Source: Defluviicoccus sp.
Lineage (GTDB): Bacteria; Pseudomonadota; Alphaproteobacteria; MPNO01
NCBI GenBank assembly: GCA_028820505.1
Contig: JAPPIT010000058.1
Coordinates: 2,287 to 66,286, forward strand
Length of the DNA: 64,000 bases
Direction of reading: 5' to 3'
Numbering within the stretch: position 1 is the stretch's first letter; each line of letters starts with the position of its first letter. Below the pieces are notes generated by a model. That model was not told the origin of the DNA, made no database searches, and saw only the letters and a list, made by a program, of their open reading frames with translations. A program made the translations under genes and the position numbers. This document shows, piece by piece, positions 10,032 through 39,917 of this stretch.

Positions 10032-10295
10032 ATGGCGAACATCAAATCGGCCAAAAAGCGGACGCGCCGCAACGCCCGCCGCGCCGACATCAACGGCGCC
10101 CGCCGCGGCCGTGTCCGGACCTACGTGAAGAAGGTCGAGGCCGCGCTCGCCGACAACGACAGAGAGGCGGCCGAAGCGGCGCTCAAGGAGGCCCAGCCCG
10201 AGCTGATGCGCGGTGTCGGCAAGGGGATCCTCCACCGCAACACCGCCGCCCGGAAAATCGCCAGGCTGAACGCACGGCTCAAGACGCTCGGCTAG
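10032..10295 (+). CDS. rpsT: 30S ribosomal protein S20
   Basis: [17 protein letters not shown]...[13 protein letters not shown]. Confidence 0.95.
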
Positions 10296-25641: not shown

Positions 25642-26232
25642 TCAGGACACCAGCTCGCGCAGGCGCCTGGCCATCGCTTCCGGCCCGGCGCCGTGGCTGA
25701 AATGGGTGAGGTAGCGCCCGTCGGGGTCCATCAGGTAGATCACCGACGAGTGGTCCATCAGGTAGTTCTCGCCCGCTTCGGGGTCGTCGACCTTTGCGTA
25801 ATAGACCCGGTAGGCGCGCGCCGCCTTGCCGATCTGTGCGGCGCTGCCCGAGAGCCCGATCAGCCGGGGGTGGAAGCTGGGGATGTAGGCCTTGAGCGCC
25901 GCGGGTGTGTCGCGGTCGGGGTCGATGGTGATGAAGACCGGCTGCACCCGCGCCGCGTCGGGGCCGAGCTCGTCGAGCGCGATCAGCATGTCGGCGAGCG
26001 CCGTGGGGCACACGTCGGGGCAGAAGGTGTAGCCGAAATAAATCAGCGCGTGCCGCCCCTTGAGGTCGGCCTCGGTGCGCTCCTGCCCGGTGTGGTCGAC
26101 CAGGACGAACGGCCCGCCGATCTTCGCGATCCCGCCCCCGTCCTCGCGCCAGACATAGACCGCGAGGATCGCCGCCACCGCGACCGCCATGAACGCGGTG
26201 GCGAGGATGATCGTGATCTTGCGATCGGACAT
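25642..26232 (-). CDS. SCO1/SenC family copper chaperone
   Basis: N-terminal TM helix, the thioredoxin-like CPDVCP copper-binding motif, and a conserved downstream His. Confidence 0.85.
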
Positions 26233-26434
26233 GCGGCGCTCGGCGTAGGGTGGGGCGTACGGAGTGAATTTAGGGTGCGCGGGGCGGATTGGCTATGGGG
26301 GAAGGGGCACGTTCCTTGCCGTCATGGTGGGCGAAGGCCCACCATCTACGAGTTTTTCTGTGCGGACGGGATGACAAAACAAAACGTGGATGGTCGGCCT
26401 CCGCCGACCATGACGTAAGGTGAAACCGTCCCCC

Positions 26435-27373: not shown

Positions 27374-27428
27374 CCCGCGGCCTCCGATCCCCCACGCCAT
27401 TCAGCAACGCATGTGTGTAGCAGCGAGA

Positions 27429-27911
27429 TCAAACAACATCCTCCAGCCGTAGCGCTTCGAGCAAGCTATCCGGCAAGCGGTAACGATATGCCCAAGCCTC
27501 CTCGTCCCACTCGGCGTCGAACAACCAAGAGCCTCGGACATAGCCTTGGGTGTGTGAGGCACGCCTGCCGAACGCTCCCATAAGACCGGCAAGCTGACTC
27601 GACGTGTAATCGGTAGCAGCACAAAGCTCATCTCTCGAAACCCATTCTGGATAGGCGTCTTTGAGTGTTTCGAGTACGATCTTTTGCCCTGTGCTTAGCT
27701 GACGACGGGTTAGCACCCGACGGGCGAACTCGACAGTCACGAACTTCTTCGGCTCCCCGGAAGCTGGAGACGAACCCGTAGAGCCGCTTGTCTCGGACAG
27801 CGCCGCCTCTCCGAGCGGTTCATCTGGCATCAGATTTGCCCCATTTTGCCTAAGGGCACGTGCGACCTTGGCGATTTCCTCGGGTGTACCTTCAAATACA
27901 GTCATTTTCAT
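27429..27911 (-). CDS. hypothetical protein in a low-GC islet (putative wHTH C-terminal domain)
   Basis: The ORF lies in a ~600-bp stretch that is clearly AT-richer than its flanks. No family recognised. Start taken at MKMTVFEG. It has an AT-rich upstream region carrying the direct repeats aagcctataa and aggctataag. Confidence 0.45.
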   Translation of the reverse strand: MKMTVFEGTPEEIAKVARALRQNGANLMPDEPLGEAALSETSGSTGSSPASGEPKKFVTVEFARRVLTRRQLSTGQKIVLETLKDAYPEWVSRDELCAATDYTSSQLAGLMGAFGRRASHTQGYVRGSWLFDAEWDEEAWAYRYRLPDSLLEALRLEDVV

Positions 27912-28027
27912 AGCGGCTTCATCCTCCTCTTCTATGCCCCCAGAGAGCCTAGAAGGCAATATGAAGCCTATAAATTATAATTTCAAGAGGCTATAAGGCT
28001 TTTCTGGCTGCTATGCGTGTCTTCCTT

Positions 28028-28915
28028 TTACCTCTCCACCCCCGCCAGCCCTTCCAGCACGCCGCAGACGCACGCCGTGTCCTCCGCGACCCGGCCCTGC
28101 GCCAGCGCCGCGTTGTAGATCTGGCCCGACGCCGCGAAGCAGGGGGCCGCGCAGCCCAGTTCGGCGAGGAAGTCGCCGATGACCTTCATGTCCTTGAGCT
28201 GCATGTCGATCGACGCCGAGGCGTCGGAATAGTCGCCCGCGACCATCTGGGGGCCGCGCACCTCGAAGATGCGCGAGGTGGCGGCGCTGTTGGAGATCAC
28301 CTCGTAGATCGTCTCCGGCGCGAGCCCCGCCTTGAGGCCGAGGGCGAAGGCTTCCCCGGCGGCGACGTTGTGGATGGCGACGAGCAGGTTGGCGACGAAC
28401 TTCATCCGGCTGCCGTTGCCGAATTCGCCGAGGTCGTACTGGGCGCGGGAGAACCCCTCGAAGACGTCGGAGAGCCCGGCGATCGCCGCCGTGTCGCCGC
28501 TCGCATAGACCACCAGGTCCCCGGTCAGCGCCTGCTTGCCGGTGCCGCTCAACGGCGTGTCGAGCAGGATTTTCCCCGTTTCGGCCAGCGTCGCCCGCCC
28601 CGCCTCCTTGACCGGGATGGGGAGCGTCGAGGTGTCGAAGGCGACGAGGCCGGGCTTCTCGGCCTCGGCGATGCCTTCGGCGCCCGTGGTCACCGCCTCG
28701 AACGCCGCGATGCTGGGCAGCGAGGTCATCACGCAATCGGCCGCCTCGGCCACCGCGCGCGGGCTGTCGGCCACCTGCCCGCCCATCGCGGCGAGCGCGT
28801 CCGCGCGGGCCGGGTCGGTGTCGCGCCCGACCACCCCGAATCCGGCCCCGATCAGGTTCTTCGCCATCGCCGAGCCCATCCGGCCCAGCCCCACGATTCC
28901 GACCGTCTTCGCCAT
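28028..28915 (-). CDS. NAD(P)-dependent beta-hydroxyacid dehydrogenase (3-hydroxyisobutyrate dehydrogenase family)
   Basis: Start MAKTVGIVGLGRMGSAMAKNL with the Rossmann GxGxxG motif, and the HIBADH-family catalytic Lys region. Confidence 0.8.
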   Translation of the reverse strand: MAKTVGIVGLGRMGSAMAKNLIGAGFGVVGRDTDPARADALAAMGGQVADSPRAVAEAADCVMTSLPSIAAFEAVTTGAEGIAEAEKPGLVAFDTSTLPIPVKEAGRATLAETGKILLDTPLSGTGKQALTGDLVVYASGDTAAIAGLSDVFEGFSRAQYDLGEFGNGSRMKFVANLLVAIHNVAAGEAFALGLKAGLAPETIYEVISNSAATSRIFEVRGPQMVAGDYSDASASIDMQLKDMKVIGDFLAELGCAAPCFAASGQIYNAALAQGRVAEDTACVCGVLEGLAGVER

Positions 28916-28991
28916 CGCCCCTCTCCCGCGCCGCGAGGCGCCCTGTGCTATAAGACCGGCGCGCACCATAGCGGCTCGGGGAAGGCGGGGC

Positions 28992-31334
28992 ATGGCAAAT
29001 CAGGGGGTGGGCGCGTCCATCGCCCGCAAGGAGGACGACCGCCTGATGCGGGGCCGCGGCCGCTTCGTCGGCGATTTCGGCCTCGCCGGACAGCTCGAGG
29101 CGGCGTTCGTCCGGAGCCCCGTCGCGCACGCCCGGATCGGGGCGATCGACATCCCGGACGACATCCGGCCGCGCGTCTTCACCCATGCCGACATGGAAGG
29201 CGTCAAGCCGATCCGCGCGGTCTCGGCGCTGCCCGGGTTCAAGCCCTCGGACCAACCGGCGCTGGCGTCGGAGAAGGTGCGCCAGGTGGGCGAGACGATC
29301 GCGGTCTGCGTGGCGGAAACCCGCGCCGAGGCCGAGGACATGGCCGACCGCGTGGCGGTCGATTTCGAGATATTGCCGGCGGTCTCCGACATGCTGGCCG
29401 CGCGCGATGCGGACGCGCCGCTGATCCACGAGCAGTGGGGCGACAACGTCTTCCTGGAGACCGATGTCAACGACGACATGGAGGCGGTCGCCGCTCGCGC
29501 TGCGGTCAAGGTCACGCGCGAGGTCCGCACCGCGCGCCAGTGCATGGCGCCGATCGAGGGCAAGGGCGTGCTCGCCGAATGGGACCCGAGGCTCCGCCAG
29601 CTCACCGTGACCTCGGCGGCGCAGCTCCCCCACATCGTCCGCAACGGGCTCGCCGAATGCCTCGGGATGGACCTCGCGAGCGTCCGGGTGATCGCGCCCG
29701 ATGTCGGGGGCGGGTTCGGCTACAAGGGGCTCCTCGCACCGGAGGAGATCTGCATCGCCTGGCTCGCCAGGCGCCTGGAGCGCCCGGTGCGGTGGCTGGA
29801 GGACCGGCGCGAGCATCTGACCGCCAACGCCAATTGCCGCGAGCACCACTACATCGTCACCGGCTACGCCGACGCCGATGGAAAGCTGCTCGGGATCGAG
29901 GCCGAGGCGACGGTCGATGCCGGCGCCTATTCGGCCTACCCGTTCTCGGCCTGCCTGGAGGCCGCCCAGGTCGCCTCGATCCTGCCCGGGCCCTACATCA
30001 TGGACGCCTTCCGCTGCCGCACCTGGTCGATCGCGTCGAACAAGCCGCCGATCCTCCCCTATCGCGGGGTGGCGCGGGCCGGCGTCTGCTTCGCGCTGGA
30101 GATCGTTATCGACGCCATCGCCCGCGAGGTCGGGCGCGAGCCGCACGAGGTCAGGCTGGAGAGCCTGGTGAAACCCGAGCAGATGCCGTTCGACAACATC
30201 ACCGCCAAGCACTACGACAGCGGCGACTACCCCGAGTGCATCCGCCGCGCGGCCGAGGCGATCAACGTCGCGGGGGTGCGCGCGCGCCAGGCGCGAGGCG
30301 AGCCGGACGGGCGGCGCGTCGGGGTCGGCTTCTCGATCTTCTGCGAGCAGGCGGGCCACGGCACGGCGGTCTATTCCGGCTGGGGGATCCCGATGATCCC
30401 GGGCTTCGAACAGGCCGGCGCGCGGCTCACGCCGGACGGCGCGTTGGAGCTCCGCGTCGGCGTCCACAGCCACGGTCAGGGGCTCGAGACCAGCCTCGCC
30501 CAGGTGGCGCACGAGGTGCTCGGCATCGATACCGACGACGTGCGCGTGGTGCTGGGCGATACCGCCTACACCCCCTACTCGACCGGCACCTGGGGGTCGC
30601 GCTGCATGATCATGGCGGGCGGCGCGACGGCGGAGGCCTGCAAGCTGCTCGCCGAGCGCATCCGGCAGATCGGCGCCGGGCTGCTCCAGGTCGAGCCCAC
30701 CTCGGTGCGGCTGGAGGACGGACGGGTCGTCAGCGCATCGGGGAGCGTGACGCTGCAGGAGGTCGGCCGCACCTGGTACCTGCGCCCGCAGGACCTCACC
30801 GCCGACGTCGACCGGCAGGGGCTGGAGACGATCGGCGGCTACAAGCCGGAGCGCGATTCCGGCACCTTCAGCTATGCCTGCCACGCCGCGATCGTCGCCG
30901 TCGACGCCGCGACCGGCGAGGTCGAGATCCTGGACTATGTGGTGGTCGAGGACGGCGGGGTGCTGGTCAACCCGATGATCGTCGACGGGCAGGTCCATGG
31001 CGGCACCGGACAGGGGATCGGCACGGCGCTCTACGAGGAGATGCCCTACGCCGAGGACGGCCAGCCGCTCGCGCCCACGCTCGCCGACTACCTGCTGCCG
31101 GGGCCGACCGAGATCCCGGCGATCCGGGTCGATCACATGGAGACCCCCTCGCCCTACACCACCTTCGGCCAGAAGGGGATCGGCGAGGGCGGCGCGATCG
31201 GACCGCCGGCGGCGATCGCCAACGCGGTCAACGACGCGCTCGCGCAGCTCGGCGTCGAGATCTCCGAGTGCCCGATCACGCCGCGCCGGCTGCTCGCCGC
31301 CATCGCCGCGGCGGCCGAGAACGGCGACCGGTGA
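28992..31334 (+). CDS. xanthine dehydrogenase family molybdopterin-binding large subunit (CoxL-like), lone
   Basis: 780 aa. N-terminal ARKEDDRLMRGRGRFVGD, plus GGGFG and other Mo-hydroxylase large-subunit motifs. No adjacent small or medium subunit genes on this strand. Confidence 0.85.
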   Translation: MANQGVGASIARKEDDRLMRGRGRFVGDFGLAGQLEAAFVRSPVAHARIGAIDIPDDIRPRVFTHADMEGVKPIRAVSALPGFKPSDQPALASEKVRQVGETIAVCVAETRAEAEDMADRVAVDFEILPAVSDMLAARDADAPLIHEQWGDNVFLETDVNDDMEAVAARAAVKVTREVRTARQCMAPIEGKGVLAEWDPRLRQLTVTSAAQLPHIVRNGLAECLGMDLASVRVIAPDVGGGFGYKGLLAPEEICIAWLARRLERPVRWLEDRREHLTANANCREHHYIVTGYADADGKLLGIEAEATVDAGAYSAYPFSACLEAAQVASILPGPYIMDAFRCRTWSIASNKPPILPYRGVARAGVCFALEIVIDAIAREVGREPHEVRLESLVKPEQMPFDNITAKHYDSGDYPECIRRAAEAINVAGVRARQARGEPDGRRVGVGFSIFCEQAGHGTAVYSGWGIPMIPGFEQAGARLTPDGALELRVGVHSHGQGLETSLAQVAHEVLGIDTDDVRVVLGDTAYTPYSTGTWGSRCMIMAGGATAEACKLLAERIRQIGAGLLQVEPTSVRLEDGRVVSASGSVTLQEVGRTWYLRPQDLTADVDRQGLETIGGYKPERDSGTFSYACHAAIVAVDAATGEVEILDYVVVEDGGVLVNPMIVDGQVHGGTGQGIGTALYEEMPYAEDGQPLAPTLADYLLPGPTEIPAIRVDHMETPSPYTTFGQKGIGEGGAIGPPAAIANAVNDALAQLGVEISECPITPRRLLAAIAAAAENGDR

Positions 31335-32275
31335 CGGCCCCGCCCCGTTCGGGCGGAGAGGTCGGGTTCGTCCTGCCCGAGCCTTCCACGACCCTTGATC
31401 TCGCGATGGACGACGGCGCGCCGATCCGCGTCGTGCGCCAGGGCAACCCGTCCGGGCCGCGTGTCGTGCTGAGCCACGGCAACGGCTTTGCGAGCGATAG
31501 CTACTTCCCGTTCTGGCGGCTCATGCTGGACCGGTTCGACCTCTGCCTGTTCGACTTCCGCAATTGCGGGCGCAACCCGTTCCACGCGGCCGAGCCGCAC
31601 GACTATCGCCGTTTCGCGCGCGACAACGTGACTGTACATCGCGCCGTCGCGGAAGAATGGGGCGCGAAGACCACGATCGGGACCTTCCATTCGATGTCGG
31701 CGATCGCCGCGCTGCTCGCGATCGTCGACGGCGTCTGGCACTGGGACGCGCTGGTGCTGTTCGACCCGCCGGTGGTCCCGCCGGAAGGCGACCCGCTGCG
31801 CGCCGAGCTGCTGACCGAGGGGGAGGCGCTGCGCGACGCCGCCCTGATCCGCAAGAATCGGTTTCCCGATCCGGAAGAGATGGCCGACGTGTTCCGCTAC
31901 CTGCACCGGTTCCGGCGGCTGCGGGAGGGGGTGCCGGAACTCAACACACGCTCGACACTGCGCTTCGATCCGGCTTCGGGCGAGTGGCTGCTCGCCTGTC
32001 CCGGCCCTGTGGAAGCCAATCTGTATGTCGAGGTCGGGGAACTGCCGATCTGGCGGAAGCCCGGCGGTCCGGCGCGCCCGCTCCTGATCGTCGGCGCCGA
32101 CCCGGAACCCGCGGACGCGCCGAAGACGGCGCCTTGTTGCAGACTGTACTGCGAAACCTTCGAAATCGACTATGCCTGCGTGCCCGATACCAGCCACCTG
32201 TTGCAGCTCGAAGAGCCCGAGCTGTGCTTCGCCCTGTTCGAGGATTTCCTGAGCCGGAACGGGATCGCCGCATGA
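31331..32275 (+). CDS. alpha/beta-hydrolase fold protein, tandem paralog 1
   Basis: GTG start overlaps the CoxL stop (GTGA). HGNGF oxyanion motif and an atypical nucleophile elbow TFHSMSA. Its N-terminus aligns with paralog 2 (MTAPP versus MNAPP). Confidence 0.7.
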   Translation: MTAPPRSGGEVGFVLPEPSTTLDLAMDDGAPIRVVRQGNPSGPRVVLSHGNGFASDSYFPFWRLMLDRFDLCLFDFRNCGRNPFHAAEPHDYRRFARDNVTVHRAVAEEWGAKTTIGTFHSMSAIAALLAIVDGVWHWDALVLFDPPVVPPEGDPLRAELLTEGEALRDAALIRKNRFPDPEEMADVFRYLHRFRRLREGVPELNTRSTLRFDPASGEWLLACPGPVEANLYVEVGELPIWRKPGGPARPLLIVGADPEPADAPKTAPCCRLYCETFEIDYACVPDTSHLLQLEEPELCFALFEDFLSRNGIAA

Positions 32276-33198
32276 ACGCGCCGCCGGACATTTTCCGCGT
32301 CCCGGAGCCTCTGGAGAGCTTCGATGCCGAGATGGAGGACGGCGCCGTCATCCGGGTGCGGCGCCACGGCAACCCGGACGGGCCCAGGCTGGTGATGGCG
32401 CACGGCAACGGATTCGCGATCGACGCCTATTACCCGTTCTGGCGGCTGCTCACGGACCGCTACGACCTCGCGATCTACGACCAGCGCAATCACGGCCGCA
32501 ACCCGCGCCACGACGTGGACCGCCACGACGTTCCCACCTTCGTCGCCGACATGGACCGGTTGGTCGACCTCATCCCGGAGCGTTTCGGCGCCAGGCCAAC
32601 GGTCGGCGCGTTCCATTCGATCTCGGCGGTGACCGCGGTCCGGCACGCGCTGGAACGCGGCTGGAAGTGGGATGCACTCGCGCTGTTCGACCCGCCGCTG
32701 ATCCCCTCGCCCGGCCACCGGGCGCACGAGGTGGCACGGACGTTCGAGCTCGGTCTCGCGGACTGGGCGGCGGCGCGGCCGGACCGGTTCTCCGACGCGA
32801 TGGAGCTCGCCGTCCGCTTCGCGCGCTCGAAGAGCCTCGCGCGCTGGGTCGAGGGCGGGCACGCGCTGATGGCGCGCTCGATCACCCGCGAGGACCCGGC
32901 AACCGGAGAATTCGTGCTGTGCTGCCCGCGCGAGGGAGAGTCGCGGGTCTACCGCACCAACGCGGGGCTCGACCTCTGCCCGCGCCTCGGCGAGCTGAAG
33001 GGGCCGCTCACCTTCATCTCGTCCGACCCCGACGCGCCGGGCGCGCTGGCGCCGGGCAAGGTCGGCCGCGCGATGAAGGAAGACCACGGCATCGAATGGA
33101 CACCGATCGGAAACACCAGCCACCTGCTCCAGATCGAACGCCCCGACGCCTGCCACGCGGCGCTGGAGACCTTCCTCGCGAGGCAGGACCTCGGTTAA
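32272..33198 (+). CDS. alpha/beta-hydrolase fold protein, tandem paralog 2
   Basis: ATGA overlap with paralog 1. HGNGF, elbow AFHSISA, Asp 24 residues after the Ser, and a C-terminal NTSHLLQ His. Confidence 0.7.
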   Translation: MNAPPDIFRVPEPLESFDAEMEDGAVIRVRRHGNPDGPRLVMAHGNGFAIDAYYPFWRLLTDRYDLAIYDQRNHGRNPRHDVDRHDVPTFVADMDRLVDLIPERFGARPTVGAFHSISAVTAVRHALERGWKWDALALFDPPLIPSPGHRAHEVARTFELGLADWAAARPDRFSDAMELAVRFARSKSLARWVEGGHALMARSITREDPATGEFVLCCPREGESRVYRTNAGLDLCPRLGELKGPLTFISSDPDAPGALAPGKVGRAMKEDHGIEWTPIGNTSHLLQIERPDACHAALETFLARQDLG

Positions 33199-33201
33199 GG
33201 A

Positions 33202-33298
33202 GGTCCCTCGATACGGTCCCTTCGGGACCTACTCGGGATGAGGGAATTCCACGGATTCCCTCACCCTGAGCAGCCGCGAAGCGGCGTATCGAAGGGCG
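33202..33298. repeat. MITE-like element with terminal inverted repeats, copy 1
   Basis: ggtccctcgatacgg ... ccgtatcgaagggcg termini and an internal cctactcgggatgaggg / ccctcaccctgag stem. It fills the 103-bp gap between convergent gene ends. A reverse-complement copy lies at 62252-62359. Confidence 0.55.
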
Positions 33299-33301
33299 GC
33301 G

Positions 33302-34339
33302 TCAACGGCCCTCGACGCGCATGTCGGCCGGCACGATGCGGCCGCCGTCCACGATCGTCTCGCCGTCGAGTGTGAGCGTGCAGCCCTTGAGCGGGATGTC
33401 GATATGGCACAGCGTGTCGTTGTCCCCGCCGACCTCGGTATTGGGGCCGGTCGAGAATAGGACGTTGCCGTAGAACGCGCGGCCGTCCTGGCCGGTCGAG
33501 TCCGCCGCCGCCGGGTCGGTGCCCATGAAATCCCAGCGCGCCCTCGGGTCGAGCCCCCAGCCGATATGGGAAACCGAGTAGGCGCGCGGGTCGTCATAGC
33601 CCGCCATGAAGCTCCTGAGCAGCGCCGCGTCGAGCCCCTCGCCGCCGATGTCGGTGATCATGCCGCTCTCGATGGTGAGCGTGATCGGATCGGTGACGTA
33701 GCGCATCGTGGGCAACAGCAGCTGATCGCCGGTGTCGATCACCACCGTCCCGTCGACGCCGTCCTCCACCGCCGCGGTGTAGAGGAACACGCCCGGCCAG
33801 TGGTCCCACCGGCCCGGCTTGTCGGTGTAGCCGTACTGCTCGCCGATCCGGTAGCCGCCGAAACGGTAGGTCACGTCGGTGCCGCCCGGCGAGGTAATGC
33901 GCATCTCCTTCGCCTTGGCCAGCCTGGCCGAGCCGGCCTCTATCCGGCGCCGGTCGTCCGGATTCGACACCATCCGCTTGAGCACGTCGATCGGCTCGAT
34001 GACGAGCAGCATGCGCGGACCGGCGTCGGTGATCTCGGTCTGCTCCCTCGACCACAGCAGGCCGACCAGGTCCACCACCATGTCGACGCTCTTGAGCGCG
34101 GCCTTGGCCGGCTCGTTGCCCTGGAGCGAATTGCCCGGGCCGAAGAAGCTTCCGGGCTTCTTCCTGATGTTGACCTGGAACGCGTCCGCTTCGAGCTCTG
34201 CCGCGGCGGCGAGGAACGCCGCCGCATGCTCGGCCCGGACATCGTCCTCCGAAAGCACGGCGAGGCTGGTCCCCGCCCCCACATCGCAAAGCTCGAGCTG
34301 TTTCCTGAACAACGCGACCGTTTCGGCATTCGCAGCCAT
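33302..34339 (-). CDS. aminopeptidase-T (M29)-fold protein, candidate 2,5-dihydroxypyridine 5,6-dioxygenase (NicX/Hpo-like)
   Basis: 345 aa from MAANAE. His258 and His312-x-Asp314 (CHIDIPLKG) are spaced like the H265/H318/D320 iron ligands I recall for NicX. Last gene of the coxLSM-Rieske operon. Confidence 0.55.
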   Translation of the reverse strand: MAANAETVALFRKQLELCDVGAGTSLAVLSEDDVRAEHAAAFLAAAAELEADAFQVNIRKKPGSFFGPGNSLQGNEPAKAALKSVDMVVDLVGLLWSREQTEITDAGPRMLLVIEPIDVLKRMVSNPDDRRRIEAGSARLAKAKEMRITSPGGTDVTYRFGGYRIGEQYGYTDKPGRWDHWPGVFLYTAAVEDGVDGTVVIDTGDQLLLPTMRYVTDPITLTIESGMITDIGGEGLDAALLRSFMAGYDDPRAYSVSHIGWGLDPRARWDFMGTDPAAADSTGQDGRAFYGNVLFSTGPNTEVGGDNDTLCHIDIPLKGCTLTLDGETIVDGGRIVPADMRVEGR

Positions 34340-34424: not shown

Positions 34425-34895
34425 TCAGACCGGCTTGGCGAGGAGCGTCGGGATCGAGAACGTGTCGAGCACGACGACGCGCTCGACGAATTTGAGGGCG
34501 CCGCCGAAGAACCCCATCGTGTCGCGGTAGCAGCCGATCGCGAACAGGCGCGAGACGCCCTCCACGTCGGTCTGGTAGAGCGCGTAATTCGTCTCCGCTT
34601 CGATCCGTTCGCCTGGATCGGCGGCTATCCGGGGCGGGCCGGTGATGTGGCGCGTGGTGTGCGGGTTGAACGTGTTGGCCCTGAGCAACGAGACGATCCG
34701 GTCGCTCAGCGCCTTCTTGGTCTCGCACAGCATCACGCTGCCCGGCAGGCCCTGCTGGACGTTCTCCAGCGGCACGATGCGATAGGCGCATTCGTCGTGG
34801 AACAGGTCGAGCCAGGCCTGCCAGTCCTCGTTGTCGAGGGCGGCGGAGGACTCGGCGATCAGGGCTTCGACCCGCGCCCGGAGCTCGATGTCCAC
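34425..34895 (-). CDS. aromatic-ring-hydroxylating dioxygenase beta subunit (SnoaL-like fold)
   Basis: 156 aa. NEDWQAWLDLFHDECAYRIVP, typical of small subunits. Sits 4 nt after the alpha subunit stop. Confidence 0.75.
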   Translation of the reverse strand: MDIELRARVEALIAESSAALDNEDWQAWLDLFHDECAYRIVPLENVQQGLPGSVMLCETKKALSDRIVSLLRANTFNPHTTRHITGPPRIAADPGERIEAETNYALYQTDVEGVSRLFAIGCYRDTMGFFGGALKFVERVVVLDTFSIPTLLAKPV

Positions 34896-34899
34896 CTGC

Positions 34900-36159
34900 T
34901 CAGCCCTCGTTGGGGTCGAGGCCCATGATGTCGCAATAGTGGGACCAGAAGCCGCGGATCATCACGTCGTCGAGCTTTTCGTCGCCGTCGCGGATCGGCC
35001 CGCGCCCGCCCATCTCGACCACGGAGACGTCGCTGCCGCCGGCGCGGTGGCCCGACTGGCAGGATTCGAGCGCCTCCGCGTCCTCCAGCGAGACATAGCC
35101 GGCGGGTCCCGCCATGTTGGCCTGGCGCAGGCGATGGGCGGTCATCGCCTCGCTGTCGTCCTCATAGCCGAAGATCGTGAAGACGAGGTCGAACGCGCCG
35201 GGTCCCCTGGGCCGGATCTGGCGGGCGGCGAGCGCGTTCCGGATCTGCTGGAAGGTGCTGTTGGGGAAGATCGAGCACATGGTGGTCGACCGGTCGTCCT
35301 CGAACTCGCGCTCGAAGCGGAGCAGCGCCGGGTCCTGCAGCGCGAGCCGCGATCCCTCCGCGGCTTCGGCAAGAGGCCGCGGCGGGCCGGGATCGGCGGC
35401 GGGCGGCGGCGCGGTTTCGTACTCCTCGGGCGGCTGCCGGACGAAGAGCAGGCTGTGGCGCCGCTTCGGATCCATCCGCGAGCCGCAATCGTGGGTCGAC
35501 CGGTTGATCCCGAAGGTGCTCTGGAAACCGTGCAGCAGCGCGCCGTGGTAATGGTCGCGCACGTTCTCCAGATAGGCCTTCCAGTTGCTGCGCACCGACT
35601 GGCGCTGGTAGCCGAGAATCCGGATCGGCGCGCGGAACAGGCGCTCCAGGTGGGCGACATGGGTCGGGCCGAGATAGTCGCGCAGCGGCTCGACGGTCTC
35701 CGAGAAGGTGGCGAAGAGGACGCCGTTCACCCCGTCCACGCGAAGCTTCCGCAGCCCGTGGCAGGCCATGTCGAAATCGTCGGGCATACCCGGGCTGCCG
35801 CCGACGCCGTGGCGGTGGGGAATCGCGACCAGATCGCCCGTCAGGTCGTAGGTCCAGCTGTGATAGAGGCAGACATGGGCCGAGACGTTGCCGAAATTCT
35901 CGCGCTGGATCAGCGCGCCGCGATGCGAGCAGCGGTTGACGAAGGCATGGACCCGCCCGTCTCCGGCGCGGTTGAAGACGATCGGCGCCTCGCCCACGAA
36001 GGTTCGGCGGAAATCGCCCGCGTCGGGGATCTCGGCTTCGAGCCCGATGAACGACCAGGCCTCGCCCTCGAAGATGCGCTCGATTTCCAGCCGGTAGAGC
36101 GCCTCGTCGTGGTACCAGGCGTAGGGAATGCGGTCGAAGGCGGCGCCGGGACGTTCCAT
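34900..36159 (-). CDS. Rieske non-haem-iron oxygenase alpha subunit
   Basis: Rieske motif CSHRG...CLYHSW and a mononuclear iron motif DHYHGALLH. Start taken at MERPGAAF. An upstream in-frame Met at 36216 is possible. Confidence 0.8.
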   Translation of the reverse strand: MERPGAAFDRIPYAWYHDEALYRLEIERIFEGEAWSFIGLEAEIPDAGDFRRTFVGEAPIVFNRAGDGRVHAFVNRCSHRGALIQRENFGNVSAHVCLYHSWTYDLTGDLVAIPHRHGVGGSPGMPDDFDMACHGLRKLRVDGVNGVLFATFSETVEPLRDYLGPTHVAHLERLFRAPIRILGYQRQSVRSNWKAYLENVRDHYHGALLHGFQSTFGINRSTHDCGSRMDPKRRHSLLFVRQPPEEYETAPPPAADPGPPRPLAEAAEGSRLALQDPALLRFEREFEDDRSTTMCSIFPNSTFQQIRNALAARQIRPRGPGAFDLVFTIFGYEDDSEAMTAHRLRQANMAGPAGYVSLEDAEALESCQSGHRAGGSDVSVVEMGGRGPIRDGDEKLDDVMIRGFWSHYCDIMGLDPNEG

Positions 36160-36235
36160 CGTGGGTCCCCGCAATGGTCTCTTGTCCTTCGATTCTATCC
36201 GTTGAACGGCGGCCACGCCAAGCGCGGAGCGCCGC

Positions 36236-37033
36236 TCAAAGACATTCTGCTACCGCGTCCTCGGTCAGCACCCCGATCAGGTGCGCACGGTAGGCGGCGC
36301 TGCCATGCAGGTCGTCGGTGAGGCCGTCCGCCGGGACCGAGAGCCCGGCGAGCGAGTCCGCGCTGAACGAGCCGGCGAGCGCCCGCTCGAACGGCTCCAC
36401 GCGGAACACGCAGGGACCCGCGCCGGTGACCGCGACCCGGACAGTGCGGTCGGCGAAGCGGGCTAGGAAGACGCCGACGATGGAAAACCGCGATGCCGGG
36501 TTGGGAAACTTGCGGTAGCTCGCGGCGGCGGGGATCGGGAACCGCACCTCGACGATCAGCTCGCCGGGCTCCAGCGCGGTCTGGAACATGCCCAGGAAGA
36601 AATCGCCGGCCGCGACGCGGCGACGGGTGGTGACGACCTCCGCGTCGAGCGCGAGCACGGCCGACGGGTAGCAGGCGGCGGGGTCATTGTTGGCGAGCGA
36701 GCCCCCGATGGTGCCCCGGTTGCGCACCAGCGGATCGCCGATCCCACCGGCGAGATTGCCGAGCGCCGGGATGACCTCCCTCACCGTTTCCGAGGCGGCC
36801 ACCGCCGCGTGCCGCGTCATCGCCCCGATGGTGAGCACGCCGGGTTCGGCGGAAACGCCCGCCAGGTCGCCGAGCGCGGCGAGGTCGACCAGGTCGGACG
36901 GCGCCGCCAGACGGTGCTTCATCACCGGAATCAGGCTCATCCCGCCGGCCAGCGGGCGCGCCTCCTCATCCGACGCAAGCAGACTCTCTGCCTCGGCAAC
37001 CGTGCCCGGCCGGTGATAGCGGTAGGGGTACAT
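36236..37033 (-). CDS. Mo-hydroxylase FAD-binding medium subunit (CoxM-like)
   Basis: MYPYRYHRPGTVAEA start, and FAD-binding PCMH motifs AGGMSLIP and GTIGGSLANNDP. The ATG overlaps the CoxS stop by 1 nt. Confidence 0.8.
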   Translation of the reverse strand: MYPYRYHRPGTVAEAESLLASDEEARPLAGGMSLIPVMKHRLAAPSDLVDLAALGDLAGVSAEPGVLTIGAMTRHAAVAASETVREVIPALGNLAGGIGDPLVRNRGTIGGSLANNDPAACYPSAVLALDAEVVTTRRRVAAGDFFLGMFQTALEPGELIVEVRFPIPAAASYRKFPNPASRFSIVGVFLARFADRTVRVAVTGAGPCVFRVEPFERALAGSFSADSLAGLSVPADGLTDDLHGSAAYRAHLIGVLTEDAVAECL

Positions 37034-37503
37034 CAGCCCTCCGCCATCGCCCCGGCGCCGGCGAGGATTGCGGCGACGATGTTGCGGTAGCCCGTGCAGC
37101 GGCAGAGATTGCCCTCCAGCCCGGCGCGGACTGAGGCTTCGTCCGCCGCCTCGCCGCGCCGGATCATATCGAGCGCGCTCATGATCATGCCTGGCGTGCA
37201 GAACCCGCATTGCAGCGCGTGATGTTCCTTGAAGGCGGCCTGGAGCGGGCTGAGCCCCTCTTCCGGCGAGACGCCCTCGATGGTGGTAACGGCATGGCCC
37301 ACGGCCTGGGCGGCGAAGACGGTGCATGACTTCACCGCGATGCCGTCGAGATGGACCGTGCAGGCGCCGCACTGGCTGGTATCGCAGCCGACATGGGTGC
37401 CGGTGAGCCCGGCCCGGCGGCGGATGAATTCGACCAGCAGCATCCTCGGGTCGATCTCCGCCCGGTGCTCGCGGCCGTTGATGTCGAGGGTGACGGGAAT
37501 CAT
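37033..37503 (-). CDS. Mo-hydroxylase (2Fe-2S)-binding small subunit (CoxS-like)
   Basis: MIPVTLDINGREH start, a plant-type ferredoxin CGACTV cluster and a second cluster CGFCTPG...CRCTGY. Starts 1 nt after the CoxL stop. Confidence 0.85.
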   Translation of the reverse strand: MIPVTLDINGREHRAEIDPRMLLVEFIRRRAGLTGTHVGCDTSQCGACTVHLDGIAVKSCTVFAAQAVGHAVTTIEGVSPEEGLSPLQAAFKEHHALQCGFCTPGMIMSALDMIRRGEAADEASVRAGLEGNLCRCTGYRNIVAAILAGAGAMAEG

Positions 37504-39917
37504 CCGGTCCCGGCCTTTTCGAGCGCCTGCCACACCGCGTCGGGCGTATAGGGCTGGGGCACGTGGCGCACGCCGAGGTCCCAGAGCGCATCGACGATCG
37601 CGTTGCCGATCGCCGCCGGCGCGCCGATCGTGCCGGTCTCGCTGCCGCCCTTGACGCCGAGCGGGTTGGACGGCGCCGGCGTCTCCTGAAAGGTCATACC
37701 GACGACCCCGGGCATGTCGGAGGCGCGGGGCAGGGCATAGTCCATCAGCGTTCCGGAGAAGAGCTGTCCCGCGCCGCCGCCGTCATAGACCACGCGCTCC
37801 ATCAGCGCCTGTCCGAGCCCCTGGGCGAGCCCGCCGACGACCTGCCCCTCGACGATCAGCGGGTTGACGATGTTGCCGCAATCGTCGGCGGTGAAGTAGT
37901 CGCGCACCGTCACCCTGCCCGACCGCAGCTCGACGACGACCACGGCAAGATGCATCGCCTGCGGGTCGTTGGTGTCGGGCGGCTCGTAGAACACGGTTTC
38001 CTCGAGCCCCGGCTCCATCGAGCCGTCGGTGGGCAGCACCGCGGCGTGGTAGGCGGCGTCGGCCACGTCCTCGAAGCTCAGCCGACGGTCGGTGCCGCGG
38101 ACCGAGAAGACGGAACCCTCGTAAACCAGATCCTCCTCGGCGCATTCGAGCATGTGCGCGGCGAGCCGCCTGGCCTTGTCGATCACCCTGTCGGCCGCCT
38201 TCATGATCGCGACCCCGCCGACCGAGAGCGAGCGCGACCCCCAGGTGCCGTTGCCGAACGGGACGCTGCCGGTATCGCCCTCGACCAGCGCGATGTCCTC
38301 GATGGGGAGGCCGAGACGATCGGCGGCGATCTGGCAGAAGGTGGTGTCGTGACCCTGGCCGTGGCTGTGGGAGCCGACGAAGACGGTCGCCTTGCCGTCG
38401 GAATGGACGCGGACGATGGCGCTCTCGTAGCCGCCATGCAGCCCGCCGCGGCTGGCCAGGTTGCGGCTCGACCCGGTGCCCGACTTGTCGAGGAAGCAGG
38501 CGATGCCGATGCCCATCCGGACGCCCCCTTCCCGGAGCTCCTCTTGCTCGGCCCGCAGCCCGTCGTAATCGGCGATCTCCAGCAGCTTGTCGAACAGCGC
38601 CGGCGGATCGCCGCAATCGTAGGGGCGCCCGACCGGCGTGGTGTAGGGGAAGGCCTCCGCCGGGATCAGATTGCGGCGCCGGATCTCGGCCACGTCGATG
38701 CCGAGCTCGCGCGCGCCGTTTTCCAGCAGCCGCTCGTTGACGAAGGTGGCCTCGGGCCGCCCGGAGCCGCGATAGGCGTCGATGGGAACGGTGTTGGTGT
38801 AGGCCCCGCGCACGCGCAGACGCAGGTTGGGTGTGGTGTAGAGCCCGGTGACGGTCTGCGGGTAGGAATTGCCCGGGATGCTCGGCGCGAAGTTGGAGAG
38901 ATAGGCGCCGAGCGCGGCGATAGTGTCGATCTCTAGCGCGAGGATCCGGCCGTCCCCGTCGAAGGCCATGCGCGCCCTGGTGTGGTGGTCGCGCGCCTGC
39001 GCGTCCGACATCAGCGCCTCCGCCCGGGTCGAGGTCCACTTGACCGGGCGCTTCAGCAGCATCGAGGCCCACACCACCGTCGAGACCTCGACCGCGAAAT
39101 GGCATTTCAGCCCGAACCCGCCGCCGACGTCGGGCGAGATCACCCGTAGCTTGTGCTCGGGTACGTGGAGCGCGTACTTGGCGAGCCAGCGTTTGAGATA
39201 GTGGGGCGTCTGGCTGGTCGCCCAGAGCGTGATGTCGCCGGTCGCCTCGTCGAACTCGGACAGGTAGGCGCGGGGTTCCAGCGGGCTGCCGGCGACACGG
39301 TGGGTATCGAGCGTCAGCGAGACCGTGCGATGCGCCGCCGCGAACGCGGCTTCCGTCGCCGCGCGGTCGCCGCGCTCGATCTCGAAGATCAGGTTGGAGC
39401 CGAACCGCTCGTGCAGCACGGGCGCGTCCTCGTCCAGGCTGCGCGCGATGTCGGTGACCGCGGGCAGGGGTTCATAGTCGACCGCGACCGCCTCGGCGCC
39501 GTCGAGCGCGGCATAGCGGTCGTCCGCGACCACCGCGGCCACCACGTCGCCCACGTGATGCACCTTGCCGGCGGCGAGCGCCGGGCGCAGCACCTCGTTC
39601 ATCGGCCGCCCGTCGGAGAACGGCATCGGGTGAACGCATGTGAGCTCGCCGAGCCCGGCCGCCTTCCAGTCCTCGGCGGTCAGCACCCTCAGCACGCCCG
39701 GCAGCGCCGCCGCCGCGCTCGGATCGACCCCGTTTATGCGGGCATGGGCGTGGGGCGAGCGGACGAAGGCGACATGGGCAGTCCCGGCCGGCTCGATATC
39801 GTCGACGAACCGCCCGCGCCCCTTGAGGAACTTGTCGTCCTCGCGGCGCCTCAGCCTTTGTCCGACATACACGTCCCTGTCCCCGTATCGCCGGATCAAT
39901 AACGGGCAGGCTCGCAT
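37500..39917 (-). CDS. Mo-hydroxylase molybdopterin-binding large subunit (CoxL-like), first gene of coxLSM-type operon
   Basis: 805 aa. RRREDDKFLKGRGRFVDD N-terminus, GGGFG, and C-terminal GVKGGSETGTIGAPAAIGNAIVDAL. Confidence 0.85.
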   Translation of the reverse strand: MRACPLLIRRYGDRDVYVGQRLRRREDDKFLKGRGRFVDDIEPAGTAHVAFVRSPHAHARINGVDPSAAAALPGVLRVLTAEDWKAAGLGELTCVHPMPFSDGRPMNEVLRPALAAGKVHHVGDVVAAVVADDRYAALDGAEAVAVDYEPLPAVTDIARSLDEDAPVLHERFGSNLIFEIERGDRAATEAAFAAAHRTVSLTLDTHRVAGSPLEPRAYLSEFDEATGDITLWATSQTPHYLKRWLAKYALHVPEHKLRVISPDVGGGFGLKCHFAVEVSTVVWASMLLKRPVKWTSTRAEALMSDAQARDHHTRARMAFDGDGRILALEIDTIAALGAYLSNFAPSIPGNSYPQTVTGLYTTPNLRLRVRGAYTNTVPIDAYRGSGRPEATFVNERLLENGARELGIDVAEIRRRNLIPAEAFPYTTPVGRPYDCGDPPALFDKLLEIADYDGLRAEQEELREGGVRMGIGIACFLDKSGTGSSRNLASRGGLHGGYESAIVRVHSDGKATVFVGSHSHGQGHDTTFCQIAADRLGLPIEDIALVEGDTGSVPFGNGTWGSRSLSVGGVAIMKAADRVIDKARRLAAHMLECAEEDLVYEGSVFSVRGTDRRLSFEDVADAAYHAAVLPTDGSMEPGLEETVFYEPPDTNDPQAMHLAVVVVELRSGRVTVRDYFTADDCGNIVNPLIVEGQVVGGLAQGLGQALMERVVYDGGGAGQLFSGTLMDYALPRASDMPGVVGMTFQETPAPSNPLGVKGGSETGTIGAPAAIGNAIVDALWDLGVRHVPQPYTPDAVWQALEKAGTG

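What the first reader, a model, noticed from the sequence alone, without database searches (positions are those of the whole stretch)
31331..33198. Tandem duplicated alpha/beta-hydrolases with an atypical nucleophile elbow, translationally coupled to a lone CoxL
The paralogs align from the N-terminus (MTAPP... versus MNAPP...) and share HGNGF. In place of the canonical G-x-S-x-G elbow they carry TFHSMSA and AFHSISA. In paralog 2 the putative Ser116 and Asp140 are 24 residues apart. That matches the unusual Ser101-Asp125 spacing I recall for the NicD deformylase, which places the acid after strand beta6. The GTGA and ATGA start/stop overlaps imply stoichiometric co-expression with the Mo-hydroxylase large subunit. 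Such overlaps are unusual for a CoxL gene that has no small or medium subunit partners.
Basis: partly seen in the sequence, partly recalled or inferred. Interest (0 to 1): 0.6.

Follow-up and report, generated by a model that had tools for sequence, protein, structure and literature searches.

The report
Odd hydrolase pair beside pyridine ring-cleavage gene
Two neighbouring, anciently duplicated alpha/beta-hydrolase genes from an uncharacterised subfamily lie next to a pyridine ring-cleaving dioxygenase in a picolinate-type degradation cluster that lacks the usual follow-up hydrolases, so they probably do that hydrolysis; this is a modest, untested case of one enzyme type replacing another.

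Summary
The sequence features are real. Two alpha/beta-hydrolase genes (31331-32275 and 32272-33198, 41% identical) follow a CoxL-type gene with GTGA and ATGA overlaps. Both carry HGNGF, an F-H-S-[M/I]-S-A elbow, an Asp 24 residues after the Ser, and a C-terminal His.

A strong NicX homolog (2,5-dihydroxypyridine dioxygenase, E 3.6e-80) lies 103 bp downstream, followed by Rieske alpha/beta, CoxM, CoxS and a second CoxL. So the CoxL is not alone. Overlapping junctions also occur elsewhere in the cluster.

The ten-gene cluster is conserved in at least 11 Defluviicoccus-type genomes. It resembles picolinate (pic) clusters but lacks PicC, NicD/PicE, NicF/PicF and PicG.

The hydrolases are not NicD family members. 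Profile comparison places them further from NicD than from an unrelated control group. They form a small distinct subfamily whose upstream and downstream copies are separate old clades. Both models' nearest solved structure is E-2-(acetamidomethylene)succinate hydrolase, which has a Ser106/Asp130/His258 triad.

Most likely (about 0.5) they hydrolyse the N-acyl-maleamate made by the NicX homolog, and perhaps maleamate too. This would be a non-orthologous replacement, and it is unproven.

The parts
31331..32275 (+). abH1: alpha/beta hydrolase, 314 aa, upstream copy of the pair. It has HGNGF, an F-H-S-M-S-A elbow (Ser121), Asp145 and His289.
   Evidence: Translation. Pfam Abhydrolase_6, E 5e-10. 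AF2 model with pLDDT 92.1. Best PDB neighbour is 3KXP. Catalytic residues are kept in all orthologs.
32272..33198 (+). abH2: alpha/beta hydrolase, 308 aa, downstream copy of the pair. It has HGNGF, an F-H-S-I-S-A elbow (Ser116), Asp140 and His284.
   Evidence: Translation. Pfam hits. AF2 model with pLDDT 96.8; Ser116 lies at the beta5/helix turn and Asp140 directly after strand 135-139. Best PDB neighbour is 3KXP.
31331..31334 (+). GTGA junction: the abH1 start overlaps the CoxL1 stop.
   Evidence: The same overlap appears in the gene calls for the related locus L005.
32272..32275 (+). ATGA junction: the abH2 start overlaps the abH1 stop.
   Evidence: The same overlap appears in L005 and in the NicX-less pair of L006.
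28992..31334 (+). CoxL1: molybdopterin-binding large subunit of the xanthine-dehydrogenase family, 780 aa. It is 52-55% identical to the large subunit found in pic-type clusters.
   Evidence: Pfam and NCBIfam hits. Best PDB match is the quinoline 2-oxidoreductase large subunit 1T3Q, E 5.5e-143. 52-55% identity to the CoxL genes of L155, L171, L163 and L168. 35% identity to CoxL2.
33302..34339 (-). NicX/PicD homolog: Fe(II) 2,5-dihydroxypyridine 5,6-dioxygenase type, convergent with abH2.
   Evidence: PDB 7CN3, E 3.6e-80. The Fe ligands His265, Ser302, His318 and Asp320, and also His189, are conserved; His105 is Trp and Glu177 is Gln. PF26233 NicX is recorded on the ortholog in L005.
33199..33301 (.). 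103-bp convergent spacer between abH2 and the NicX homolog, containing two short perfect hairpins (33215-33229 and 33240-33262).
   Evidence: The consensus scan found no terminator-like site.
34425..34895 (-). Rieske oxygenase beta subunit, AndAd-like.
34900..36216 (-). Rieske oxygenase alpha subunit. It is close to terephthalate 1,2-dioxygenase, salicylate 5-hydroxylase and AndAc, and so is PicB-like.
   Evidence: PicB is described as a Rieske oxygenase of this type in bioRxiv 10.1101/530550.
36236..37033 (-). CoxM: FAD-binding medium subunit.
   Evidence: It overlaps the CoxS stop by 1 nt.
37033..37503 (-). CoxS: [2Fe-2S] small subunit. The likely start is at 37503; the ORF itself extends to 37533.
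   Evidence: ATGA overlap with CoxL2. The ortholog in L005 is 156 aa.
37500..39917 (-). CoxL2: second molybdopterin large subunit.
28028..28915 (-). HIBADH-family dehydrogenase, divergent from CoxL1. The likely start is at 28915; the ORF extends to 28993. It is part of the conserved cluster, and its role is unknown.
   Evidence: Conserved at 77-88% identity in L010-L020.

Best explanation
abH1 and abH2 are an old, co-inherited pair of serine alpha/beta-hydrolases from a small uncharacterised subfamily. The subfamily is marked by an HGNGF oxyanion loop, an F-H-S-x-S nucleophile elbow, the catalytic Asp in an L-F-D-P-P motif right after strand beta6, and His in T-x-H-x-x-Q. In this Defluviicoccus-type genome they sit inside a pic/nic-like pyridine-carboxylate degradation cluster.

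Proposed pathway:
1. The Mo-hydroxylases (CoxL1, and CoxL2 with CoxS and CoxM) and the Rieske oxygenase hydroxylate the pyridine ring to a 2,5-dihydroxypyridine-type intermediate.
2. The NicX homolog cleaves the ring to an N-acyl-maleamate (N-formylmaleamate in the canonical pathway).
3. One hydrolase removes the N-acyl group by Ser116/His284/Asp140 catalysis through an acyl-enzyme. This is the job NicD/PicE does elsewhere.
4. The second hydrolase may hydrolyse maleamate to maleate and ammonia, the job of NicF/PicF. Alternatively the two may act as one heteromer.

Shown: the gene anatomy, the conservation, the context, the absence of canonical partners from the window, the fold, and the placement of the residues. 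Inferred: the substrate, the division of labour between the two copies, and the sharing of CoxS and CoxM by both CoxL subunits.
For: - The NicX homolog (E 3.6e-80 to 7CN3) lies 103 bp from abH2 and keeps all four Fe ligands.
- The ten-gene cluster is conserved in at least 11 species-level genomes.
- In 80 NicX-centred metagenome loci, NicD is next to NicX in 58 and NicF in 56. None of them holds an abH-family gene.
- Loci L155, L171, L163 and L168 combine a CoxL1 homolog (52-55% identity), Rieske subunits, a PicC-type amidohydrolase, NicE, NicD, NicX and NicF. This matches the published pic cluster.
- The window has the CoxL1, Rieske and NicX parts, but tblastn finds no NicC, NicD, NicE or NicF homolog in 64 kb. 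Instead it has two hydrolases.
- Ser116, Asp140, His284 and the G-N-G oxyanion loop are invariant in 100 genomic family members, including every abH1 ortholog.
- Confident AF2 models (pLDDT 96.8 and 92.1) place Ser at the beta5-helix turn and Asp directly after beta6.
- For both models the best PDB neighbour is E-2-(acetamidomethylene)succinate hydrolase, TM 0.73-0.74 by query and 0.84 by target. That enzyme hydrolyses the N-acyl product of pyridine ring opening with Ser106/Asp130/His258.
- NicD and Nfo use the same acid position.
- Elsewhere, family members sit beside Mo-hydroxylase genes in 21 of 69 other genome loci. Cupin, PcaD-like hydrolase, Amidohydro_1 or UbiD genes are often nearby, which are N-heterocycle or aromatic catabolic settings.
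Against: - There is no biochemical evidence.
- The family is not specifically related to NicD.
- The Nfo-type deformylase structure 4L0C is not among the top 50 Foldseek neighbours of either model.
- NicX adjacency is limited to one lineage. Members 58-71% identical to abH2 lie next to sulfatase, M24 peptidase or unrelated genes with no N-heterocycle genes nearby. They nevertheless keep the same invariant lid residues (Arg169, Glu223, Tyr227, Cys218). This argues for a substrate class wider than, or different from, N-formylmaleamate.
- PicC, NicD, NicF and NicE homologs could be encoded elsewhere in the genome. Only 64 kb was visible.
- Asp252, after beta7, is also invariant.
- The conserved HIBADH-like gene has no role in this scheme.
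Confidence: 0.5

Rival explanations
1. The pair belongs to the same pathway but catalyses a different step. Examples: hydrolysing or decarboxylating a carboxylated ring-cleavage product because no PicC decarboxylase is present; opening a lactone or ester; or an E-2AMS-hydrolase-like reaction that releases a semialdehyde for the neighbouring HIBADH-like dehydrogenase.
For: - The cluster has no PicC-type Amidohydro_2 gene, although pic-type loci do.
- The conserved HIBADH-family gene suggests a semialdehyde intermediate.
- The nearest structure, 3KXP, catalyses hydrolysis that ends in succinic semialdehyde.
- Family members elsewhere pair with PcaD-like enol-lactonases, cupins and UbiD decarboxylases.
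Against: - NicX-type cleavage gives an N-acyl imide, not an enamide, so a semialdehyde is not expected from it (established NicX chemistry).
- No direct evidence exists for any alternative substrate.
Confidence: 0.2
2. The pair is a general-purpose esterase or lipase-type module. It happens to be syntenic with the pyridine cluster in this lineage and does not take part in the pathway.
For: - Closely related members (58-71% identity) and the tandem pair itself occur without NicX or Mo-hydroxylases.
- Only generic Pfam and NCBIfam matches are found.
Against: - The operonic arrangement with start/stop overlaps behind CoxL1 is kept in at least 11 genomes.
- The pair sits where the pathway needs hydrolases that are otherwise missing from the window.
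- Association with Mo-hydroxylase genes is about 30% of other loci. That compares with a few percent expected for a random 20-kb window, which is my rough estimate and not a computed value.
Confidence: 0.15
3. The proteins are cofactor-independent oxygenases of the HOD/QDO kind, or perhydrolases, that use the Ser/His/Asp-after-beta6 scaffold for oxygen chemistry on an N-heteroaromatic intermediate.
For: - The acid sits after beta6, as I recall for HOD. This rests on my own knowledge and was not checked here.
- The setting is N-heterocycle catabolism.
- Non-haem haloperoxidase/perhydrolase structures appear among the Foldseek hits.
Against: - No HOD or QDO structure appears in the top 50 neighbours of either model.
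- The cluster already has a dedicated ring-cleaving dioxygenase.
- There is no 3-hydroxy-4-quinolone-type context.
Confidence: 0.05
4. The hydrolases are accessory or partner proteins of the Mo-hydroxylase. They would act in maturation or as an extra subunit, as suggested by translational coupling to CoxL1.
For: - The GTGA overlap with CoxL1.
- Family members recur directly beside CoxL genes (for example L057, L060, L076, L084).
Against: - Most family members (48 of 69 other loci) have no CoxL within 10 kb.
- An intact, invariant catalytic triad points to an enzyme.
- Overlapping junctions are ordinary in this cluster.
- No alpha/beta hydrolase is known to mature this enzyme family; XdhC/CoxF-type proteins do that (my own knowledge).
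Confidence: 0.05

Closest known systems
NicD / Nfo / PicE / NdpF N-formylmaleamate deformylases (alpha/beta hydrolases of the nic, nicotine, pic and ndp clusters)
   Same: - Alpha/beta-hydrolase fold.
- Ser nucleophile preceded by His.
- Catalytic Asp in a D-P-P motif right after beta6, about 24-25 residues after the Ser. His near the C-terminus.
- Encoded next to a NicX-type dioxygenase.
   Different: - Not the same family: 25-28% identity over the N-terminal half only.
- The profile-profile match is weaker than to a control family.
- NicD has a canonical G-H-S-M-G elbow and a P-G-I-T-S-P loop, where abH has F-H-S-x-S and H-G-N-G-F.
- abH proteins are about 40 residues longer, mostly in the lid.
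- They come as a conserved pair.
- NicF and NicE are absent.
E-2-(acetamidomethylene)succinate hydrolase of vitamin B6 degradation (PDB 3KXP)
   Same: - Best structural neighbour of both models, TM 0.73-0.74 by query and 0.84 by target, rmsd 3.2-3.3 A.
- Ser106/Asp130/His258, with the same +24 Ser-Asp spacing.
- It hydrolyses the N-acyl group of a ring-opened pyridine.
   Different: - Only 17% identity; sequence E value 0.24.
- Its carboxylate-binding residues (Arg146, Arg167, Tyr168, Arg179, Tyr259) could not be mapped, because no structural alignment was returned.
- Its pathway uses a flavin ring-opening oxygenase rather than NicX.
pic gene cluster for picolinic acid degradation (Alcaligenes faecalis JQ135; bioRxiv 10.1101/530550)
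   Same: - A Mo-hydroxylase large subunit related at 52-55% identity to those in pic-type loci.
- An AndAc/NagG-type Rieske oxygenase alpha/beta pair.
- A NicX/PicD-type dioxygenase, all in one cluster.
   Different: - PicC decarboxylase, PicE deformylase, PicF amidase, PicG isomerase and the Rieske ferredoxin and reductase are missing.
- Present instead: abH1, abH2, a HIBADH-like dehydrogenase and a second CoxL sharing one CoxS/CoxM set.
- The Rieske subunits are only 32-39% identical.
D14 / KAI2 / RsbQ-type alpha/beta hydrolases
   Same: The second half of the elbow is shared: G-H-S-V-S-A against F-H-S-I-S-A.
   Different: They have Gly at the first elbow position. The acid is, as I recall, after beta7. 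Their biology is unrelated.

Membership tests
NicD/Nfo/PicE N-formylmaleamate deformylase family | Alpha/beta-hydrolase fold | tested here: met
   Pfam Abhydrolase_6. AF2 models with pLDDT 96.8 and 92.1.
NicD/Nfo/PicE N-formylmaleamate deformylase family | Ser-His-Asp triad with the acid at the end of beta6 (NicD S101/D125/H245; Nfo S94/D118/H238) | tested here: inconclusive
   Ser116, Asp140 and His284 align with the NicD residues and are invariant. Asp140 directly follows strand 135-139 in the model. No coordinates were available to measure triad geometry, and Asp252 after beta7 is also invariant.
NicD/Nfo/PicE N-formylmaleamate deformylase family | Sequence membership: bona fide members next to NicX are 51-70% identical to a Pseudomonas NicD ortholog | tested here: not met
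   BLASTP gives 25-28% identity over about 125 residues, E 0.013 and 4e-4. tblastn of NicD and NdpF finds nothing in the window. hhalign of A2 against the NicD family gives 91.7%, E 8e-7, against 98.3%, E 2e-14 for PcaD-like controls.
NicD/Nfo/PicE N-formylmaleamate deformylase family | Family motifs: G-H-S-M-G elbow, P-G-I-T-S-P-A oxyanion loop, A-G-H-M-I-P-W-D | tested here: not met
   The NicD family invariants are listed. abH has F-H-S-x-S, H-G-N-G-F and T-S-H-x-x-Q. Only the D-P-P motif after beta6 is shared.
NicD/Nfo/PicE N-formylmaleamate deformylase family | Gene neighbourhood with NicX and NicF | tested here: inconclusive
   The NicX homolog is adjacent. NicF is absent.
NicD/Nfo/PicE N-formylmaleamate deformylase family | N-formylmaleamate deformylase activity | not testable with these tools
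   Needs an enzyme assay.
E-2-(acetamidomethylene)succinate hydrolase (3KXP) | Close structural similarity | tested here: met
   Rank 1 in Foldseek against PDB for both models: E 1.2e-16 and 1.9e-15, target-normalised TM 0.84.
E-2-(acetamidomethylene)succinate hydrolase (3KXP) | Sequence membership and the substrate-binding residues Arg146, Arg167, Tyr168, Arg179, Tyr259 | tested here: not met
   17% identity and phmmer E 0.24 over 75 residues, so sequence membership fails. The binding residues could not be mapped.
HOD/QDO cofactor-independent dioxygenases | Structural closeness to HOD/QDO and a 3-hydroxy-4-quinolone pathway context | tested here: not met
   Neither appears in the top 50 Foldseek neighbours. 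The context is NicX and pic-like.
Haloalkane dehalogenase / epoxide hydrolase / fluoroacetate dehalogenase (Asp nucleophile) | Asp at the nucleophile elbow | tested here: not met
   Ser occupies the elbow in 100 of 100 family members.
pic (picolinate) degradation cluster | PicA (Mo-hydroxylase large, medium and small subunits), PicB (Rieske oxygenase) and PicD (NicX-type) together | tested here: met
   compared.
pic (picolinate) degradation cluster | PicC decarboxylase, PicE deformylase, PicF amidase and PicG isomerase | tested here: not met
   None is found in the 64-kb window. They are present in pic-type loci L155, L171, L163 and L168. The rest of the genome was not visible.

The most novel reading that the evidence does not exclude
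The abH1/abH2 pair is a heteromeric or sequential two-step amidase that, with no other enzymes, takes the NicX-type ring-cleavage product all the way to maleate. In this reading the Defluviicoccus cluster is a shortened pic-type pathway with no decarboxylase. The NicX homolog would cleave 3,6-dihydroxypicolinate directly, giving N-oxalylmaleamate. The new hydrolase subfamily would remove oxalate rather than formate. The same subfamily would serve as a general hydrolase for N-acyl ring-cleavage products downstream of Mo-hydroxylases in many uncultured Alphaproteobacteria.
Probability: 0.12. Interest if true: 0.55.

Novelty: new variant of a known kind. Interest (0 to 1): 0.35.

Why it matters
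If the pair really replaces NicD/PicE, and perhaps NicF/PicF, it gives a first functional handle on a small, distinct alpha/beta-hydrolase subfamily. That subfamily has about 258 clusters at 50% identity, almost all from uncultured Alphaproteobacteria. It carries an unusual Phe-His-Ser-x-Ser elbow and recurs next to molybdenum hydroxylases.

It would also show that the lower part of the 2,5-dihydroxypyridine pathway is not fixed. That matters for predicting pyridine, picolinate and nicotinate degradation from metagenomes: searches for NicD and NicF would miss this version. It also bears on the physiology of Defluviicoccus-type organisms in wastewater.

It is an incremental advance in enzyme-family annotation, not a new principle.

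Tried and rejected
- Model coordinates are not exposed, so triad distances for Asp140 versus Asp252 could not be measured.
- NCBIfam has no NicD model. NicD and NdpF themselves hit only generic families, so that library cannot decide membership.
- tblastn of abH2 against 72,556 plasmids gave only two hits. One, an Agrobacterium pAt plasmid at 39% identity, lies in a Mo-hydroxylase/cupin/hydrolase operon. No annotated or characterised relative was found.
- The names sources give to homologs are only 'pimeloyl-ACP methyl ester carboxylesterase' or 'hypothetical'.
- I looked for a shared lid motif with NicD (aromatic-x3-Cys). The hhalign alignment is off by one residue there, and the control comparison is stronger overall, so I do not rely on it.
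- I considered that the Trp at NicX position 105 and the Gln at position 177 show a changed substrate. I rejected this as evidence. The bona fide enzyme NdpE has Phe at 105 and other homologs have Gln at 177. H105F and H105M variants stay active.
- The promoter and terminator consensus scan of 28700-33500 found nothing.

Full report
**Observation.**
The two ORFs exist as described. abH1 runs 31331-32275 on the + strand. It starts at a GTG inside cGGTGAc, whose TGA is the stop of the upstream CoxL gene. abH2 runs 32272-33198 and starts at the ATG of an ATGA that also ends abH1. The proteins (314 and 308 aa) are 41% identical end to end, E 1e-77, and match only generic alpha/beta-hydrolase models. 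The motifs are at these residues:
- HGNGF: 49 in abH1, 44 in abH2.
- F-H-S-M/I-S-A: Ser121 and Ser116.
- L-F-D-P-P: Asp145 and Asp140.
- T-S-H-L-L-Q: His289 and His284.

The Ser-Asp distance is 24 residues in both. PMC3831237 gives S101/D125/H245 for NicD (confirmed there by mutagenesis) and S94/D118/H238 for Nfo, with the acid at the end of beta6.

**Corrections to the observation.**
- The CoxL (28992-31334) is not alone. Downstream of abH2 on the other strand lie, in order:
  - a NicX homolog (33302-34339);
  - Rieske oxygenase beta (34425-34895) and alpha (34900-36216);
  - CoxM (36236-37033) and CoxS (37033-37503);
  - a second CoxL (37500-39917).
- A HIBADH-family dehydrogenase (28028-28915) is divergent from CoxL1.
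- Start/stop overlaps are the rule in this cluster. CoxL2/CoxS share ATGA and CoxS/CoxM overlap by one base. The overlaps therefore indicate an ordinary operon, not a special stoichiometric link.
- The elbow is only half unusual. H-S-x-S-A is also the D14/KAI2 motif, as G-H-S-V-S-A. Phe in place of the first Gly is the odd feature, and it is a family trait: F at that position in 99 of 100 members.

**The genomic unit.**
The window comes from a Defluviicoccus-type alphaproteobacterium at about 70% GC. The whole ten-gene block is conserved in gene order in at least 11 species-level MAGs, L010-L020. It comprises:
- the HIBADH-like gene;
- CoxL1, abH1 and abH2;
- the NicX homolog;
- Rieske beta and alpha;
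- CoxM, CoxS and CoxL2.

Within that set abH1 is the least conserved protein (62-89% identity), compared with 85-94% for abH2. Every abH1 ortholog nevertheless keeps all candidate catalytic residues.

**What the neighbours say.**
- The 345-aa neighbour matches P. putida NicX (PDB 7CN3) with E 3.6e-80. It keeps the four Fe ligands (His265, Ser302, His318, Asp320) and also His189.
- Position 105 is Trp and position 177 is Gln. These differences are not diagnostic. The characterised NdpE has Phe at 105, other homologs have Gln at 177, and H105F/M variants of NicX stay active.
- A NicX-centred scan of metagenome contigs shows the normal partners. NicD-type deformylase is beside NicX in 58 of 80 loci, NicF in 56, NicE in 43. 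The abH family appears in none.
- Four of those loci (L155, L171, L163, L168) also carry a CoxL that is 52-55% identical to CoxL1. They add CoxM and CoxS, Rieske alpha/beta (32-39% identical), a PicC-type Amidohydro_2, and NicE-NicD-NicX-NicF.
- That is the composition, and even the gene order, of the picolinate (pic) cluster of Alcaligenes faecalis: PicA Mo-dehydrogenase, PicB Rieske oxygenase, PicC decarboxylase, PicD, PicE, PicF, with picG between picC and picE.
- The window cluster is therefore a pic-like variant. It has the upper-pathway enzymes and the ring-cleaving dioxygenase. In 64 kb it has no PicC, NicC, NicD/PicE, NicF/PicF or NicE/PicG. In their place are two hydrolases.

**What the hydrolases are.**
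- They belong to a distinct, unnamed subfamily. There are 755 relatives in the 90%-clustered collection, named at best 'pimeloyl-ACP methyl ester carboxylesterase'.
- A family profile finds only 258 clusters at 50% identity with E <= 1e-30 among 1.84 billion representatives.
- They are not NicD relatives in any specific sense:
  - BLASTP to a Pseudomonas NicD ortholog (L008, in a complete nicFEDCXRAB-type locus) gives 25-28% identity over about 125 residues.
  - hhalign of the family profile against a 16-member NicD alignment gives 91.7% probability, E 8e-7.
  - The same profile against three PcaD-like hydrolases gives 98.3%, E 2e-14. NicD against those controls gives 99.4%.
- What is shared with NicD and NdpF is the architecture:
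  - His-Ser at the elbow;
  - Asp in a D-P-P motif directly after beta6;
  - His near the C-terminus.
- AF2 models are confident: pLDDT 96.8 for abH2 and 92.1 for abH1. They put Ser at the strand-helix turn (strand 110-115, helix 116-129) and Asp140 immediately after strand 135-139.
- For both models the best PDB neighbour is 3KXP, E-2-(acetamidomethylene)succinate hydrolase, with TM 0.73-0.74 by query and 0.84 by target. This enzyme removes the N-acyl group from a ring-opened pyridine in vitamin B6 catabolism, and its triad is Ser106/Asp130/His258, again +24. 3KXP is also among the top five PDB sequence matches of NicD.
- Caveats:
  - The Nfo-type deformylase structure 4L0C is not in the top 50 neighbours of either model.
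  - Asp252, after beta7, is invariant too. The residue at the usual acid position, 254, is variable.

**The pair is old.**
A neighbour-joining tree of 100 family members from genomes was built without bootstrap support. It gives three main results:
- All upstream copies (abH1 of the Defluviicoccus group plus the upstream genes of L021, L023, L031, L037 and L038) fall in branches separate from all downstream copies, which form the abH2 clade.
- A third large clade holds most of the members linked to Mo-hydroxylases.
- The pair also occurs without NicX or CoxL, again tightly linked. The gap is -4 nt in L006 by the collection's own gene calls. It is -4 to +32 nt by my ORF calls.

So this is not a recent tandem duplication. 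It is a co-inherited two-gene module, which suggests either two consecutive reactions or a heteromer.

**Family-wide context.**
- Of 69 genome loci outside the Defluviicoccus cluster, 21 have CoxL, CoxM or CoxS homologs within 10 kb. Recurrent arrangements:
  - CoxL-cupin-CoxM-CoxS-abH-PcaD-like hydrolase-M20 peptidase (L053).
  - CoxL-CoxM-CoxS-cupin-PcaD-like hydrolase-abH on an Agrobacterium pAt plasmid (L009).
  - UbiD-abH-CoxL (L076).
  - abH next to a 469-aa Amidohydro_1 (L007, L023, L031, L038, L058, L076).
- These are catabolic settings for N-heterocycles or aromatics.
- However, marine Rhodospirillaceae members 58-60% identical to abH2 sit between an M24 peptidase and a sulfatase with nothing of that kind nearby.
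- Because the lid residues Arg169, Glu223, Tyr227 and Cys218 are almost invariant across all these contexts, the family's substrate class may be broader than N-formylmaleamate.

**Mechanism proposed.**
1. The Mo-hydroxylases and the Rieske oxygenase convert a pyridine carboxylate to a 2,5-dihydroxypyridine-type compound. CoxL1 and CoxL2 are 35% identical and are presumed to share the single CoxS/CoxM set.
2. The NicX homolog cleaves the ring next to the nitrogen, giving an N-acyl-maleamate.
3. abH1 and/or abH2 attack the acyl carbonyl with Ser116, activated by His284 and Asp140. The oxyanion is held by the H-G-N-G-F loop and the residue after the Ser. The acid (formate in the canonical case) and maleamate are released.
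4. The second paralog may then hydrolyse maleamate.

Steps 1 and 2 are inferred from homology and from comparison with pic clusters. Steps 3 and 4 are inferred from context, fold and conserved residues. None is demonstrated. I put about 0.5 on the hydrolases acting on the NicX product. The rivals are another step of the same pathway (0.2), an unrelated esterase (0.15), cofactor-free oxygen chemistry (0.05) and a hydroxylase accessory role (0.05).

**Verdict.**
The sequence observation is largely right. The lone-CoxL and coupling argument is wrong. The NicD-like reading is right in spirit, as an analogous function, but wrong as family membership. The finding is a plausible non-orthologous replacement in a known pathway by an uncharacterised hydrolase subfamily with a variant elbow. 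It is a new variant of a known kind, of moderate-to-low general interest (0.35), and it is testable with simple enzyme assays.

Noticed in passing
window 26000-28000 (ORF 27429-27959, - strand): A lower-GC stretch (0.652 against about 0.71) lies just left of the conserved cluster. It holds a 176-aa ORF with no Pfam or NCBIfam match. At the same position the close relative L005 carries PhdYeFM antitoxin, PIN and AIPR genes instead, so this looks like a variable insertion spot.
   Followed up: partly
window 33302-34339 (- strand): The NicX homolog has Trp at the position of NicX His105 and Gln at Glu177, two residues of the substrate hydrogen-bond network. The Fe ligands and His189 are kept. Other homologs, including the characterised NdpE, also vary at these positions.
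   Followed up: yes
L052, L067, L069, L074, L078, L081 (each at 10001-10909): The same Defluviicoccus-type genomes carry a third paralog of the hydrolase family (46-49% identical to abH2) at another locus. A distant HIBADH-like gene lies about 4 kb downstream of it.
   Followed up: no
window 33199-33301: The convergent spacer between abH2 and the NicX homolog holds two short perfect hairpins: GGTCCC-TTCG-GGACC at 33215-33229 and GAGGGAAT-TCCACGG-ATTCCCTC at 33240-33262. Neither has a T-tract, and the consensus terminator scan reports nothing.
   Followed up: partly
window 28992-31334 and 36236-39917: Two different Mo-hydroxylase large subunits (35% identical) share a cluster with only one CoxM and one CoxS. 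Homologs of CoxL1 in pic-type loci have their own CoxM and CoxS directly downstream. This suggests a shared electron-transfer module here.
   Followed up: partly
window 34425-36216 (- strand): The Rieske oxygenase alpha/beta pair has no ferredoxin or reductase gene in the cluster. The pic-type loci L163 and L168 encode both next to their Rieske genes.
   Followed up: no
L009 (Agrobacterium tumefaciens plasmid NZ_CP123840.1, 245226-251818) and L053: A recurring operon of unknown substrate combines a Mo-hydroxylase (large, medium and small subunits), a small cupin, a near-threshold PcaD-like enol-lactonase, and an abH-family hydrolase. L053 adds an M20 peptidase.
   Followed up: partly
window 21718-25212 (+ strand): A 1164-aa ORF resembles the fused indolepyruvate/2-oxoacid:ferredoxin oxidoreductase type. 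Its counterpart in L005 has POR and DUF6537 domains. It is followed by CxxCxxCC, SCO1/SenC and D-2-hydroxyacid dehydrogenase genes. This is flanking synteny, not part of the cluster.
   Followed up: no
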